Below, piece by piece: positions 7,101-38,073 of a stretch of 64,000 nt of DNA. Numbering within the stretch: position 1 is the stretch's first letter; each line of letters starts with the position of its first letter. The DNA is taken from IMG/VR virus record IMGVR_UViG_3300042546_000155. One strand, 5' to 3'. A program made the translations under genes and the position numbers. The notes under the pieces are model-generated. The model was not told the DNA's origin and did no database searches. It saw nothing but the letters and a program-made list of their open reading frames with translations. This DNA comes from a virus.

Positions 7101-9327
7101 CGAACCAGTCAGCGTTTAGAACAATGATATTATCGCCAACCATTAGTGTTTGTGTATTGGCGTATGTTGTCTGTCCAGCGATGACAAGGTTGCCAGTTAC
7201 GGTAACATCGCCACTAATTGTACCACCTGACTTGGTGTAGAAAGTTGCACCAGCATGTGAGTTAATAGAGTTAGCCCATGCATTTGATGATGCGCCAACT
7301 GATATTGCATATGCATTACCGGCTGCTCCAACTGCTACAGTGTATGAATTACCGGCTGCGTTAACAGCAAGCATATAACTATTACCAGATGATCCAACGG
7401 TGTTGGCCCAGGTATTTGATCTTGCTCCAATTGTATTAGCCCAGCCATTAGCGGCTGCAACCATAGATTCTGAAACTTGGTTCTGATTTAGAGTTAAGTT
7501 CTGAATCTGTGCGTAAATTGCTGAATTGACGGTGTTGGCCCAACCATTAGATGCTGCACCAATTGATACTGAGTAGTTATTACCGGCAGTGCCTACTGTA
7601 TTAGCCCAGCTATTAGATGCTGCACCAACGGCTACTGTATAAGAATTACCAGCAGCACCAACGGCTACTGTATAAGCATTTCCTGCGGCTCCAACTGCTA
7701 CAGTATAAGCATTACCTGATGCATTAACGGCAAGCATATATGTATTGCCGGATGAACCGACTGACTGAGCATAAGCATTACCTGATGTACCTACAGTGTT
7801 GGCCCATGCATTTGATCTTGCACCAATTGTGTTTGACCAAGCATTAGCAGATGATCCGACAGCAATAGCATAATTATTACCAGCTGTTCCTACAGCAATA
7901 GCATATGCATTAGCAGATGATCCTACTGCTACAGTATAAGCATTGCCGGCAGCGCCAACAGCTATAGAGTATGCATTAGCAGATGATCCTACTGCTACTG
8001 TATAAGCATTTCCAGCGGCTCCAACGGCTACTGCATAAGAATTTCCTGCGGTTCCAACTGCTACTGTATAAGCATTACCAGCGGCTCCAACGGCTACAGA
8101 GTATGCATTTCCTGATGAGCCTACTGTATTAGACCAAGCGTTTCCTGATGCTCCGACTGCTACAGTGTAAGCATTACCTGATGTACCTACAGTATTAGCC
8201 CATGTATTGGATCTTGCACCAATTGTGTTTGACCAAGCATTACCAGCAGCGCCAACAGCTACAGTATAATTGTTTCCAGCTACGCCAACTGCTACAGTAT
8301 ATGAGTTACCTGATGTTCCTACTGTGTTTGACCATGCATTACTTGATGCACCAACTGTATTTGACCATGCATTAGCAGAAGCACCGACAGTGTTAGACCA
8401 AGCATTGCCAGCAGCGCCGACTGCTACCGTATAAGTATTACCAGCGACACCTACAGCGACAGTGTATGAGTTACCAGCAGCACCAACGGCTACTGTGTAT
8501 GAATTTCCTGATGCTCCGACTGCTACAGTATAAGCATTACCTGATGTGCCTACTGTATTGGCCCAAGTATTTGATCTTGCGCCAATGGTATTGGCCCATG
8601 CATTTGCGGATGCGCCGACAGTGTTAGACCAAGCATTACCAGATGCTCCAACAAAATTAGTATAGACATTGCCTGCAACACCCACTGTATTAGACCAGGC
8701 ATTGGCTGATGATCCAACAAATACTGTATAAGCATTTCCTGCAACACCTACTGTATTAGACCATGCATTACCAGCAGCACCAACGGCTACTGTGTATGAA
8801 TTTCCTGAGCTACCGACTGTATTAGCCCATGTGTTTGATCTTGCACCAATTGTATTGGCCCAAGCATTAGCAGATGCACCGACAGTATTCGACCATGCAT
8901 TACCAGCAGCACCAACGGCTACTGTATATGAATTTCCTGAGCTACCGACAGTATTTGACCAAGCGTTACCCGAATCGGCTACTCTATCGATATAAACATT
9001 GGCAGAAGAAGCTAGATTGTTTGCCCATGCATTGGCACTAATAGCAACGCTGTTTACCTTAATCATGGTAGCGTTTGCTAGAGTGAATGTATTACCTACG
9101 ACACGAATACCAGCAACATTAGATGATACTGTGTCGAGAACATTCTGAGAGGGGATAACATCAATGTAAATGATTTCGCCTACATTGATTGAGGCCGTGG
9201 TTCGAACAGATAAACTGTTAGAACGAGTTTGGGCTGTATTACCACTGTATGCGTAAATAATCTGATTTGTTTTGATGCGCCATTGATCAAATGTGTCAGT
9301 GAACGCTACGTTTGGTAAGTTGGCCAT
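4180..9327 (-). CDS. Long tail fibre with C-terminal intramolecular chaperone (peptidase S74) domain
   Basis: 1715 aa. N-terminal TDTFDQWRIKTN, extensive internal repeats, C-terminal SSDASLKENV...GVIAQEIEAVLPEVV...VKYDRIVPLLIEAIKEL chaperone signature. Confidence 0.85.
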   Translation of the reverse strand: MANLPNVAFTDTFDQWRIKTNQIIYAYSGNTAQTRSNSLSVRTTASINVGEIIYIDVIPSQNVLDTVSSNVAGIRVVGNTFTLANATMIKVNSVAISANAWANNLASSANVYIDRVADSGNAWSNTVGSSGNSYTVAVGAAGNAWSNTVGASANAWANTIGARSNTWANTVGSSGNSYTVAVGAAGNAWSNTVGVAGNAYTVFVGSSANAWSNTVGVAGNVYTNFVGASGNAWSNTVGASANAWANTIGARSNTWANTVGTSGNAYTVAVGASGNSYTVAVGAAGNSYTVAVGVAGNTYTVAVGAAGNAWSNTVGASANAWSNTVGASSNAWSNTVGTSGNSYTVAVGVAGNNYTVAVGAAGNAWSNTIGARSNTWANTVGTSGNAYTVAVGASGNAWSNTVGSSGNAYSVAVGAAGNAYTVAVGTAGNSYAVAVGAAGNAYTVAVGSSANAYSIAVGAAGNAYTVAVGSSANAYAIAVGTAGNNYAIAVGSSANAWSNTIGARSNAWANTVGTSGNAYAQSVGSSGNTYMLAVNASGNAYTVAVGAAGNAYTVAVGAAGNSYTVAVGAASNSWANTVGTAGNNYSVSIGAASNGWANTVNSAIYAQIQNLTLNQNQVSESMVAAANGWANTIGARSNTWANTVGSSGNSYMLAVNAAGNSYTVAVGAAGNAYAISVGASSNAWANSINSHAGATFYTKSGGTISGDVTVTGNLVIAGQTTYANTQTLMVGDNIIVLNADWFGSVIPTEDAGIEVNRGLTSNAVSVLWNETLNRWTLNDGTGNYGIATNTHVESANAWAAGSIQLTAVSANTLAGRMANSANNWANTKIGAVTSNSTSRIWANNTTDASSNELVFIDLAQSGVTATTYGSATVTPVFTVDAYGRITSSANVTSIVPISSGVSGLGTGVSTALATSVGTAGAFVTNGGALGTPSSGNLGNCTFPTLNQNTTGSAGSLTTARTLTVGSTGKTFNGTADVSWTLSEIGVIGVAAAANNWANTKIAAVTSNNTTRIWANNVVDASSNELVFVDLATSGVAAGTYGGASTIPSYTVDAYGRITSASNITASIPISTGVSGLGTGVATALATAVGSAGAFVTNGGALGTPSSGTLINCTFPTLNQNTTGSAGTLTTARNINGTAFNGSADITTANWGTARTITIGDTGKSVNGSGNYTWTLSEMGVAANDATVNVGTTSIVLNRASAAQSLTGITSIDGSAAKLTTARAINGTNFDGTAAITTATWGTARTITIGSTGKSVDGSAAVSWTVAEIGAAAVGATTYVGTTAITLNRASAAQSLTGITSIDGSAASLTTARNINGTAFNGTGNITTTTWGTSRTITLGDTAKSVDGSGNYTWTHSEMGVAANDSTVNVGTTSIVLNRASAAQSLTGITSIDGSAATLTTARNINGTAFNGSAAITTATWGTARTITIGSTGKSVDGSAAVSWSLAEIGAAAVGATTYVGTTAITLNRASAAQSLTGITSIDGSAATLTTARNINGTAFNGSAAITTATWGTARTITIGSTGKSVDGSAAVSWSLAEIGAAAVGATTYVGTTAIALNRASAAQSLTGITSIDGSAVTFTSTTQNSQFNSIGVGTAGSGTAGQIRATNDITAFYSSDASLKENVKTIDNALAKIEKINGVEFDWTDAFIEAQGGEDDYFVRKHDIGVIAQEIEAVLPEVVATREDGIKAVKYDRIVPLLIEAIKELKTELDELKAK
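4600..5950 (-). repeat. Five ~270-nt (90-aa) tandem modules in the long fibre
   Basis: Equivalent positions at 4681, 4951, 5221, 5491, 5761; unit LTTARNINGTAFNGS...LNRASAAQSLTGITSIDGSA. Confidence 0.9.
7270..8990 (-). repeat. Array of degenerate 33-nt (11-aa) repeats
   Basis: GNAYTVAVGAA / ANAWSNTVGSS units repeated dozens of times. Confidence 0.9.
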
Positions 9328-35459: not shown

Positions 35460-36048
35460 CGACCTTCTCCTTCAGTATGTGTTTGAATTTCTCCTTATCA
35501 TACTTTAGAAATGGTCTATACTTTTTCACCTTGAGTGAAACCTTAGGCCAAATCACATCATTGTCATAGTATTTATCAAACTTATCAGCATATCCTGTGA
35601 AGTCATTTAGAATTGTCATCGTCTCAATTGAGATTGACTTGCGTAGAAATAGAATCACAATATCTGGATATCTATCATTACTCACATTGAAGGACACTCT
35701 CGGATCATCTTCTTTGAAGACCTTTTGTATGTCATCGGCAAAGAGATAAGACAAACTCTGTCTCCGTCTTGTATAGGCAGTATGAACATCATTTGCTTCT
35801 TCGCTTGCAAACTCTAATATGTAATGCTTGTCATCTAGAAGATTGGCAACATAGTGATCACGCAATTCTTCTGCATTGTATTCTTTGGCTAGTTTCTCAT
35901 AGAACCATTTGTCATTTCGTTTTAGATATGACTCCTTGTTTGCACGGAGTTTACCGTTCATTTGAAAGAAGTCATACTTTTGACTGGTGAAATGAGTCCT
36001 AAGTGCCAAGAATAGCAAATAGGACCCATAGCCTGTGAAATGTTTCAT
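35431..36048 (-). CDS. gp59: Helicase loader
   Basis: YLLFLALRTHFT..KYDFF...GK...KRND..FYEKL; ISIETM.IL; KKYRPFL; next to gp32. Confidence 0.85.
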   Translation of the reverse strand: MKHFTGYGSYLLFLALRTHFTSQKYDFFQMNGKLRANKESYLKRNDKWFYEKLAKEYNAEELRDHYVANLLDDKHYILEFASEEANDVHTAYTRRRQSLSYLFADDIQKVFKEDDPRVSFNVSNDRYPDIVILFLRKSISIETMTILNDFTGYADKFDKYYDNDVIWPKVSLKVKKYRPFLKYDKEKFKHILKEKVDENTRGKRI

Positions 36049-36881
36049 CGAGTCTGTAGGTAAGGATCAATGTTCATTACTTCATCAACGGTCTGTGCTA
36101 CGAAACCTTGGGACTGCTGCTGCATTGGAGGAAGACCATATGAGTCTAACATCTTGGCTGCCATTTCTTCTTTTATCTTATTATAAGAATCCTTGATCAT
36201 ATCAGATGTGAGACCTCTTAGATTTGAATACGGCTCATTAGGTGTTTCTAACACCCAACCTTCATTGAGGAACTTGTTCTTACGGTATATCTGATTTGGG
36301 TGTTCAAGTTGTTTATGGTTCCACTTGAGGACCTTATTCTTGATACAGTCAAAGGTCTCACGGTTGATATAGAGTTTATCCTCTAGAGGATCATATGACA
36401 CCTTGCAATGCTTATAATCAAAGTGTGCTAGTAGTTCCTCACGAGTCTGATACTTGGTGAGAATATACTGTGCCTGCGTTCTATGATTATTGATCACATC
36501 AACAATGTTTGTATTGTGCATATAAGACATCATTTCGGAACGTGACCATTCCGTGTCTGCAAAAGGAACATCATCAAAGATTGAATTGATAGGTGTGATA
36601 GGATTGTAGGCGGCCGCCATTGCCTTTTTCGCCGCTTCTTCTCTTTCACTCTGCTTCTTGAAACCTTCTGTCAGGTGGTTATAAACACCAACATCATTAT
36701 TCAATACAAAGATATCAATGTCCTTGAACTTAATATTCTTTAGGACATTTGTAAAGAATCCACCAGCAATCACAACATTATTGCCATACAGACCCGATAA
36801 GAGATTTCGTGTTTTGATTAGAGATTTGATTGCTCTTTTGGATTCTTCAATATCATACTTTTCATTATCACTAAACATCAT
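36045..36881 (-). CDS. Nucleotidyltransferase-superfamily protein (CCA/poly(A) polymerase head-like)
   Basis: IAGGFF...KDIDIFV (GG...DxD) and FDY.HC motifs. Confidence 0.55.
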   Translation of the reverse strand: MMFSDNEKYDIEESKRAIKSLIKTRNLLSGLYGNNVVIAGGFFTNVLKNIKFKDIDIFVLNNDVGVYNHLTEGFKKQSEREEAAKKAMAAAYNPITPINSIFDDVPFADTEWSRSEMMSYMHNTNIVDVINNHRTQAQYILTKYQTREELLAHFDYKHCKVSYDPLEDKLYINRETFDCIKNKVLKWNHKQLEHPNQIYRKNKFLNEGWVLETPNEPYSNLRGLTSDMIKDSYNKIKEEMAAKMLDSYGLPPMQQQSQGFVAQTVDEVMNIDPYLQTR

Positions 36882-37324: not shown

Positions 37325-37477
37325 AAGCGGGCCCGTTCTGTTTCGAGGTGGAGCCCATACCCAAAGGATTACGCTGCTAGAGCGAAAGCCTCATATGCAT
37401 TGTTGTCGTTTGCATTTACGATTTGCTTTCGATCTCCTTACGACCTTACTGAATCCTGTCGAACCTGAATCCGGCCC
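37325..37477 (-). ncRNA. ssrA: Two-piece tmRNA, coding piece
   Basis: Begins GGGCCGG-ATTCAGGTTCGAC. Tag frame 37413..37369 after TAAAT encodes ANDNNAYEAFALAA*. 3' end approximate. Confidence 0.92.
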
Positions 37478-37478
37478 A

Positions 37479-37913
37479 TCATAAAGAAACATGAGGATTG
37501 GTTTTCTTCATTACAGATTTCAATCTGCCTCTCCACCATCCTACAGGATGTTCATTCAAAGAAAACTGACCTTCAGCGTAGCCATCATTGAACCAATATC
37601 TTTGAGTTCTAATCTTACGACCATCAGTTCCCGTAGGATACTTTCTCTCTTTCTTTGAATGGTTTGCCCATCTAAGAGTGTTCGTAAGTTCTGCTCCTTT
37701 TTTGGCGCCTTCATTGATTGCGATAAAAGAACATTCATCGGAAGTTAGTAATCCCAACAAACCTTTCCAAGCAATCAAATCTTGCCAGTGTCCATGTTCC
37801 TCATATAGTTTCTTATGCGCTTCGGCATGTTCCTCTATAGTGAGTTCAACGATATTTTCTGGTTCATCATTCCCACCCATATGTTTAGGAATGATATGGT
37901 GCTTATGTTTCAT
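37479..37913 (-). CDS. HNH homing endonuclease inside the tmRNA intervening segment
   Basis: HKHHIIPKHMGG.D...N.VELT.EEHAEAH motif; C-terminal WFNDG...GW.RGR DNA-binding-type repeat; AGGAGA SD. Confidence 0.85.
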   Translation of the reverse strand: MKHKHHIIPKHMGGNDEPENIVELTIEEHAEAHKKLYEEHGHWQDLIAWKGLLGLLTSDECSFIAINEGAKKGAELTNTLRWANHSKKERKYPTGTDGRKIRTQRYWFNDGYAEGQFSLNEHPVGWWRGRLKSVMKKTNPHVSL

Positions 37914-37918
37914 AATAA

Positions 37919-37953
37919 TCTCCTGTCGATATTACTATTTATAAATCGACAAG
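37919..37953 (-). promoter_or_regulatory. Late promoter TATAAATA in the loop of an RBS-sequestering hairpin
   Basis: CTTGTCGAT-TTATAAATAGTAAT-ATCGACAGG-AGA; the 3' arm overlaps the SD. Confidence 0.75.
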
Positions 37954-37969
37954 TTTTCACATTTCCTTA

Positions 37970-38038
37970 TGGTGGACCGGGTGGGAACTGCCCCCACGTC
38001 CAAGAAGCCTATATTCCGTCTCTCAACGATCTAAGCAT
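37970..38038 (-). ncRNA. ssrA: Two-piece tmRNA, acceptor piece
   Basis: GAC-GTGGG-GGCAGTT-CCCAC-CCGGTCC-A-CCA. Pairs with GGGCCGG to give G3.U70. 5' TGCTT/GATC pair with AAGCA/GATC of the coding piece. Confidence 0.92.
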
Positions 38039-38040
38039 AT

Positions 38041-38048
38041 TATTTATA
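38041..38048 (-). promoter_or_regulatory. T4-type late promoter for pre-tmRNA
   Basis: TATAAATA immediately upstream of the acceptor piece. Confidence 0.7.
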
Positions 38049-38073
38049 ACATACGGTGAGTTTTTTGTCAAGA

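What the first reader, a model, noticed from the sequence alone, without database searches (positions are those of the whole stretch)
37325..38048. HNH homing endonuclease gene lodged in the excised intervening segment of a two-piece tmRNA
Seen, on the - strand in order: late promoter (38048-38041), tmRNA acceptor piece ending CCA at 37970, a 492-nt spacer, then the coding piece starting GGGCCGG at 37477. A 435-nt HNH ORF fills the spacer, and its TGA ends one nucleotide before the mature tmRNA 5' G. Established: in permuted tmRNAs (Caulobacter type) the spacer is short and is removed by tRNA-type processing (RNase P at the 5' end, trimming at CCA). Inference: the endonuclease occupies a neutral site that needs neither an intron nor an intein, because host tRNA processing cuts it out and could release it as a separate mRNA. 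I know of no description of this homing niche, but I could not search the literature.
Basis: partly seen in the sequence, partly recalled or inferred. Interest (0 to 1): 0.93.

Follow-up and report, generated by a model that had tools for sequence, protein, structure and literature searches.

The report
Nuclease gene inside phage tmRNA spacer
A T4-like phage carries a selfish DNA-cutting gene inside the stretch that is normally trimmed out of its two-piece ribosome-rescue RNA (tmRNA), and 27 other phage alleles do the same, so these genes seem to sit inside an RNA gene harmlessly without an intron or an intein.

Summary
Confirmed. An intact 144-aa HNH gene fills the 492-nt intervening segment (IVS) of a permuted, alphaproteobacterial-type tmRNA in a T4-like phage. 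I found 28 distinct HNH-bearing IVS alleles (464-531 nt) among 231 permuted tmRNA alleles, a sample enriched for HNH. Syntenic empty alleles exist, one 94-98% identical in both tmRNA pieces. Carriers are scattered on the gp32 tree, and flanks are mosaic. The stem closing the IVS covaries as strongly as in empty alleles, so the precursor is probably still processed. Sister HNH cassettes sit beside truncated tmRNA stumps. The spacer also carries unrelated small genes, so it is a general cargo slot. Best reading: a tmRNA-targeting homing endonuclease made neutral by host tRNA-type processing. No cleavage, homing or RNA data exist. I found no paper describing it. This scan noted the same arrangement on other genomes, including a PacI-like nuclease that I did not check.

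The parts
38041..38071 (-). tmRNA promoter region: TTGACA (38071-38066), 17 nt, then TATAAATA (38048-38041, T4 late consensus overlapping a -10-like TATAAA)
   Evidence: Read directly. The sigma-70 scan does not list it because the -10 lacks T6, so the early role is uncertain.
37970..38036 (-). tmRNA acceptor piece (5' end inferred): T-arm 37997-37981, acceptor strand CCGGTCC, discriminator A, encoded CCA
   Evidence: Rfam RF04321/RF01849; precursor fold
37478..37969 (-). Intervening segment (IVS), 492 nt; median 87 nt among short alleles
37961..37971 (-). 5' arm of the IVS closing stem (CATAAGGAAAT)
   Evidence: Pairs with 37490-37480; covaries across 28 alleles
37922..37953 (-). Leader hairpin that hides the Shine-Dalgarno sequence; its arms copy the tmRNA D-arm sequence (TCGACAGGA at 37929-37921), putative operator
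   Evidence: fold -12.8 kcal/mol, z=-2.7
37936..37943 (-). Internal T4-type late promoter TATAAATA within the leader hairpin
   Evidence: TAAATA in 26/26 long HNH leaders versus 12/159 short IVSs
37920..37923 (-). Shine-Dalgarno GGAG; predicted pairing 0.75 in the precursor, 0.12 in a late transcript
37479..37913 (-). HNH endonuclease ORF, 144 aa; H6, N20, H29, H33; helical middle; C-terminal beta-hairpin module WFND...GWxRGR
37480..37490 (-). 3' arm of the IVS closing stem, written in the last HNH codons (Val-Ser-Leu-stop)
37326..37477 (-). tmRNA coding piece (3' end approximate): GGGCCGG 37477-37471, D-arm motif TCGACAGGA 37462-37454 (proposed nuclease binding site), 3' hairpin 37356-37329
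37369..37413 (-). Tag reading frame ANDNNAYEAFALAA-stop

Best explanation
A mobile HNH homing endonuclease gene of a tmRNA-targeting family lives in the intervening segment of a permuted phage tmRNA. Steps: (1) the precursor is transcribed from the upstream promoter and folds into the tRNA-like domain, helped by an 11-bp stem closing the IVS (predicted; covariation shown). (2) Host RNase P and 3' processing remove the IVS without ligation, giving normal two-piece tmRNA (established for the gene class; inferred here). (3) In the precursor a hairpin hides the HNH ribosome-binding site, so ribosomes do not melt the closing stem (predicted). (4) Late in infection an internal late promoter gives a shorter message with a free binding site (inferred by analogy to I-TevI, SegB, mobE). 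(5) The protein binds the conserved D-arm sequence a few bases 3' of the IVS in an HNH-free allele of a co-infecting phage and nicks nearby; recombinational repair copies the HNH-bearing IVS plus flanking tmRNA sequence (inferred; target about 0.6). (6) The inverted D-arm copies around the promoter act as an autorepression operator (inferred, about 0.55).
For: Empty syntenic alleles, L046 94% (acceptor piece) and 98% (coding piece) identical to the window. gp32 tree: 7 carrier rows need 6 changes, no more clustered than shuffles, one clade rejected p-AU=0.006. Mosaic flanks: L362 has a 92%-identical HNH and 98-100% identity over the first 62 nt of the coding piece, then 65%; L029 shows the reverse. 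H/N/H/H intact in 28/28; dN/dS about 0.15 vs L362 and 0.12 vs L363. Closing stem own -15.2 vs crossed -5.6 kcal/mol, 0 of 10,000 permutations, same as short alleles; tags found intact in 26/28. Late promoter plus hidden SD in 26/26 long leaders. A protein-blind promoter pattern returned this HNH family at nearly every ORF-bearing permuted locus. D-arm-like motif upstream of 48/55 tmRNA-linked HNHs vs 6/71 unlinked. Sister cassettes flank tmRNA stumps that stop before the D-arm. Regulatory design matches PMC2988022.
Against: Self-immunity is unexplained: IVS carriers keep TCGAC as often as empty alleles (23/28 vs 93/109, p=0.77), and L046 differs from the window by one base in the first 45 nt of the coding piece. 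tmRNA types are mosaic against gp32 even among empty alleles, so mosaicism is not specific to the HNH. The motif set was chosen after seeing linked loci and the tests ignore relatedness. Pfam HNH score is below cut-off; fold matches are weak and cover about 35-40 residues. Repeated loss could also give patchiness.
Confidence: 0.78

Rival explanations
1. Passive cargo: the IVS is a permissive slot for small genes, and this is a free-standing HNH that landed there but cuts a neighbouring gene or nothing; it spreads by ordinary recombination or distant-site homing.
For: Many IVSs hold unrelated ORFs (DUF2061, DUF6356, CxxCxxCC, PGDYG) with the same stop position. T4 free-standing enzymes cut hundreds to thousands of bp away (PMC2988022). 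Carrier D-arms are not altered.
Against: The family's link to tmRNA extends beyond the IVS: about 30 sister sequences sit beside tmRNA genes, many next to truncated stumps, and the leader motif tracks that link. Every IVS over 440 nt in my sample holds this HNH.
Confidence: 0.13
2. Domesticated weapon: the nuclease nicks the host's or a competitor's ssrA gene, and the phage's own tmRNA replaces the lost function; spread into phage alleles is a by-product.
For: The proposed motif (AGGATCGAC type) is also in the Rfam alphaproteobacterial consensus. Purifying selection on the ORF.
Against: Most relatives lack it (58 empty vs 7 carrier rows). Late, repressed expression fits a selfish gene. A single nick in DNA does not remove existing host tmRNA.
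Confidence: 0.05
3. The insertion inactivates the tmRNA: the 492-nt allele is not processed and is a dead or dying gene.
For: In 7 of 28 alleles the ORF runs 7-36 nt into the mature tmRNA. No RNA data.
Against: Closing stem, acceptor stem, G3-U70, CCA and tag are all kept, with compensatory changes, across deep divergence.
Confidence: 0.04

Closest known systems
Phage T4 SegB (PMC2330249) and T5 F-Tfl enzymes in tRNA gene clusters
   Same: Homing endonuclease gene in a transcript cut by tRNA processing; SegB recognises a conserved tRNA motif and homes into SegB-free clusters; hairpin control; tRNA maturation proposed to cut off its stop codon.
   Different: SegB is GIY-YIG and lies between separate tRNA genes. 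Here an HNH lies inside one gene, between two pieces that must pair across it, and its last codons form the structural stem.
T4 intron endonucleases I-TevI/II/III and Aeh1 mobE (PMC2988022)
   Same: Late promoter in a hairpin that hides the ribosome-binding site; operator resembling the homing site; delayed translation protects host RNA maturation.
   Different: No self-splicing intron and no ligation; removal relies on host enzymes.
tmRNA group I introns with LAGLIDADG genes (PMC11915505)
   Same: Endonuclease gene inside a tmRNA gene.
   Different: Those are self-splicing introns in the T-loop of standard genes. For the permuted IVS the paper mentions only a tRNA-Ala and a repetitive element; 'HNH' does not occur in its main text.
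ORF-bearing 23S rRNA intervening sequences (Coxiella S23p; PMC4990558)
   Same: ORF in a stem-closed segment excised by a host RNase with no religation.
   Different: Excised by RNase III; the ORF is not described as a nuclease; the element breaks an otherwise continuous RNA, whereas the tmRNA IVS exists already.
Two-piece tmRNA of marine and aquatic T4-like phages such as Melnitz (PMC9004378)
   Same: Permuted ssrA upstream of the gp33 late coactivator gene, as here.
   Different: No IVS cargo or nuclease reported in the passages read.
Archaeal bulge-helix-bulge rRNA introns carrying LAGLIDADG genes (from memory, not checked)
   Same: Endonuclease gene removed by the host's tRNA-processing machinery, no ribozyme.
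   Different: Exons are ligated there; here the product stays in two pieces.

Membership tests
Permuted two-piece tmRNA (RF04321, RF01849) | Acceptor piece upstream of coding piece, 7-bp acceptor stem with G3-U70, CCA | tested here: met
Permuted two-piece tmRNA (RF04321, RF01849) | Tag reading frame ending in AA-stop | tested here: met
   ANDNNAYEAFALAA
Permuted two-piece tmRNA (RF04321, RF01849) | IVS removed in vivo, two mature pieces | not testable with these tools
HNH (beta-beta-alpha-metal) endonucleases | Catalytic His, Asn and metal-binding His residues | tested here: met
   H6, N20, H29, H33 in 28/28 alleles; profile hits to HNH domains of a maturase and Cas8-HNH
HNH (beta-beta-alpha-metal) endonucleases | beta-beta-alpha fold | tested here: inconclusive
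   Model pLDDT 90 shows E2-6, E21-25, H26-40; matches to HNH nucleases at rmsd 1.0-1.9 over 34-42 residues but E>1 and Z<5
Homing endonuclease genes | Optional occurrence with cognate empty alleles | tested here: met
Homing endonuclease genes | Distribution discordant with host genes; flank co-conversion | tested here: met
   p-AU 0.006; mosaic L362 and L029. Repeated loss or ordinary recombination is not excluded.
Homing endonuclease genes | Cleaves the empty allele, spares its own | not testable with these tools
   Sequence basis of immunity not found
Homing endonuclease genes | Biased inheritance in mixed infection | not testable with these tools
   No cultured phage carries it
Group I intron form of tmRNA | Ribozyme core inserted in the T-loop | tested here: not met
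   T-loop intact, no intron match in Rfam, ORF fills 435 of 492 nt
T4 free-standing seg/mob genes | Located between genes | tested here: not met
   Lies inside the tmRNA gene, though outside the mature RNA
T4 free-standing seg/mob genes | Late promoter with ribosome-binding-site hairpin (segB, mobE) | tested here: met
RNA-guided HNH nucleases (IscB type) | RuvC domain and a conserved guide RNA locus | tested here: not met
   IscB match is 17 bits vs cut-off 175, HNH part only; 144 aa leaves no room; no other Rfam RNA in the window

The most novel reading that the evidence does not exclude
The excised spacer of permuted tmRNA is a third kind of neutral host for homing endonucleases beside introns and inteins: a splicing-free, intron-like element cut out by host tRNA processing. 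A tmRNA-targeting HNH family recognises the D-arm, autorepresses through D-arm mimics, and shows the whole path from destructive neighbour (stump plus replacement tmRNA) to harmless resident. In alleles whose stop codon lies inside the mature RNA, RNase P cleavage would turn the nuclease message into a non-stop substrate of tmRNA itself.
Probability: 0.55. Interest if true: 0.85.

Novelty: new variant of a known kind. Interest (0 to 1): 0.74.

Why it matters
Homing endonuclease genes usually survive inside conserved genes by riding self-splicing introns or inteins. A widespread family that uses a segment removed by host processing would add a new route, and a natural model for how a free-standing nuclease moves next to its target and becomes intron-like. 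It also explains mosaic tmRNA genes in aquatic T4-like phages, which weakens host inference from phage tmRNA trees. Standard annotation misses these genes (ARAGORN found none here). The target prediction is precise enough for one nicking assay.

Tried and rejected
ARAGORN: no call. No whole genome held. Cultured phages: only distant, partial HNH matches; none carries this element. Bacterial genomes: 10 partial hits on MAG contigs, not followed up. Fold searches found no clear relative for the middle or C-terminal part; Atlas hits were under 0.9, one cluster with NUMOD3, a lead only. Immunity by D-arm change rejected for IVS carriers (p=0.77) though seen for adjacent cassettes (11/19 vs 93/109, p=0.009, uncorrected). 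Immunity by C at acceptor position 4: 11/15 in the window's clade vs 6/16 close empties, p=0.07; not established. One origin of the IVS location: the 75-column tree is too short to decide; IVS rows are interleaved with adjacent and unlinked rows (8 changes, 5 forced by starred branches), and two subfamilies with different C-termini exist. No decayed HNH remnants in short IVSs. My first regex was wrong and returned nothing. Keiler 2000 was not available. Seven literature searches on tmRNA, intervening segments and homing endonucleases found no report of an IVS nuclease; subscription papers are not covered.

Full report
OBSERVATION. The window is from a T4-like phage: gp33, gp59 and gp32 genes follow the locus. 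On the minus strand lie a promoter (TATAAATA 38048-38041, with TTGACA 17 nt upstream), the tmRNA acceptor piece ending CCA at 37970, a 492-nt intervening segment (IVS), and the coding piece from GGGCCGG at 37477 with tag ANDNNAYEAFALAA. Rfam scores both permuted models above threshold; ARAGORN finds nothing. The ORF 37913-37479 encodes 144 aa with an N-terminal HNH motif (PHROG 655, E=7e-13). The full precursor is predicted to fold with T-arm, acceptor stem and an IVS closing stem (z=-5.5).

EMPTY AND FILLED ALLELES. Relatives fetched by gp32, blind to the HNH, mostly have short IVSs at the same place. L046 (73-nt IVS) is 94% identical in the acceptor piece and 98% in the coding piece. Over all loci I counted 231 distinct permuted alleles: 181 short (170 nt or less, median 87) and 28 with this HNH (464-531 nt); every IVS over 440 nt holds it. 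The sample is enriched for HNH by design. None of 120 loci from a T-arm pattern search was found to carry it, so it is a minority allele. On a gp32 tree, 7 carrier rows need 6 changes, no more clustered than shuffled labels, and one clade is rejected (p-AU 0.006). Flanks are mosaic: L362 shares a 92%-identical HNH and the first 62 nt of the coding piece with the window, then drops to 65%; L029 shares the tag and 3' end but has a different tRNA-like domain and a 61%-identical HNH. This fits co-conversion, though tmRNA types also shuffle among empty alleles.

THE tmRNA IS STILL UNDER SELECTION. The first IVS bases pair with the last, which are the final HNH codons. Across 28 alleles own ends pair at -15.2 kcal/mol versus -5.6 for crossed ends (0 of 10,000 permutations), as in short alleles (-15.7 vs -6.0), with several pair types per column. 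Tags ending AA-stop were found in 26 of 28. This supports normal removal of the IVS by tRNA processing enzymes, as described for the gene class (PMC11915505, PMC3985003).

THE PROTEIN. H6, N20, H29 and H33 are kept in 28/28; dN/dS is about 0.12-0.15 against the nearest alleles. The model (pLDDT 90) has the expected strand-strand-helix start, a helical middle and a C-terminal hairpin module; structural matches are to HNH nucleases but short and weak. Two subfamilies with different C-termini occupy the IVS.

The 56-nt leader forms a hairpin (37953-37922) holding a second TATAAATA and hiding the GGAG site. All 26 long leaders have this; predicted pairing of the site falls from 0.75 to 0.12 in the window's late transcript. 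A DNA pattern for CCA, late promoter and GGAG, blind to protein, returned this HNH at nearly every ORF-bearing permuted locus. This is the design of I-TevI, SegB and mobE (PMC2988022). So the working message is probably the late transcript, not the excised spacer. Two alleles (L029, L207) lack the hairpin and start within 11 nt of CCA.

LIKELY TARGET. The hairpin arms copy the tmRNA D-arm: TCGACAGGA occurs at 37929 and at 37462. Mean longest shared word is 7.7 nt versus 5.4 in shuffles, and 7.7 own versus 7.1 crossed (p=0.014, uncorrected for kinship). T4 intron enzymes have operators resembling their homing sites. About 30 sister HNHs lie beside phage tmRNA genes, mostly antisense, often with a truncated tmRNA stump on one side and a complete copy on the other; the stumps I read end at the T-loop, in the IVS or just after the acceptor 5' strand, and none keeps the D-arm. 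D-arm-like words precede 48/55 tmRNA-linked genes and 6/71 unlinked ones (motif chosen after inspection). I infer binding at the D-arm and nicking close by. How carriers avoid self-cleavage is unresolved.

A GENERAL CARGO SLOT. Many phage IVSs of 150-380 nt hold unrelated ORFs, among them DUF2061, DUF6356, CxxCxxCC and PGDYG, often stopping at the same TGA. The neutral site is therefore not HNH-specific. What is specific is a nuclease family tied to the gene it lives in.

COMPARISON AND NOVELTY. Closest are SegB between T4 tRNA genes (PMC2330249), LAGLIDADG genes in tmRNA group I introns, and ORF-bearing 23S rRNA IVSs cut by RNase III (PMC4990558). None is a nuclease in the excised segment of a permuted RNA gene. 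My literature searches found no such report, but subscription journals are not covered. Earlier notes of this scan describe the same arrangement elsewhere, including a PacI-like nuclease; I read them after forming my view and do not count them as evidence.

VERDICT. Real, recurrent and apparently undescribed; a new variant of the homing endonuclease lifestyle. Shown: anatomy, empty alleles, patchiness, covariation, conserved promoter-hairpin. Inferred: processing, cleavage site, homing, autorepression. Confidence 0.78; interest 0.74.

Noticed in passing
L201:2510-2919 (Sinorhizobium phage Phosso, PV764938): Cultured phage with an unannotated permuted tmRNA whose 410-nt IVS has no convincing ORF and no Rfam match; it may hold a non-coding RNA. 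Phosso is also a possible test host for IVS processing.
   Followed up: partly
L149, L187, L469, L515, L156, L116, L200, L517 and others: Permuted tmRNA IVSs carry small genes of 40-119 aa (DUF2061, DUF6356, CxxCxxCC, PGDYG), an apparently unreported cargo site.
   Followed up: partly
L213, L216, L217, L219, L226, L244, L254, L296, L303, L350: Sister HNH cassettes split tmRNA genes, leaving a 5' stump and often supplying a complete replacement tmRNA with its own promoter; inverted D-arm-like repeats flank the divergent promoters.
   Followed up: partly
L212, L214, L284, L292, L295, L342, L411: The HNH stop codon lies 7-36 nt inside the mature tmRNA, so RNase P cleavage would leave a non-stop HNH message.
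   Followed up: no
L207:3478-3484: tmRNA acceptor stem starts GUG with a compensatory U2-A71 pair, unlike the usual GGG.
   Followed up: no
L001-L080: tmRNA sequence types are shuffled relative to the gp32 tree even among HNH-free phages.
   Followed up: partly
L363:5807-6241 and 7981-8526: Two GIY-YIG genes lie within 4 kb of an HNH-bearing tmRNA, in the gp33 region.
   Followed up: no
window 36045-36881: 278-aa ORF between gp33 and gp59 with a nucleotidyltransferase-like match (PHROG 1614, E=5e-9); relatives at this position are labelled Gad2.
   Followed up: no
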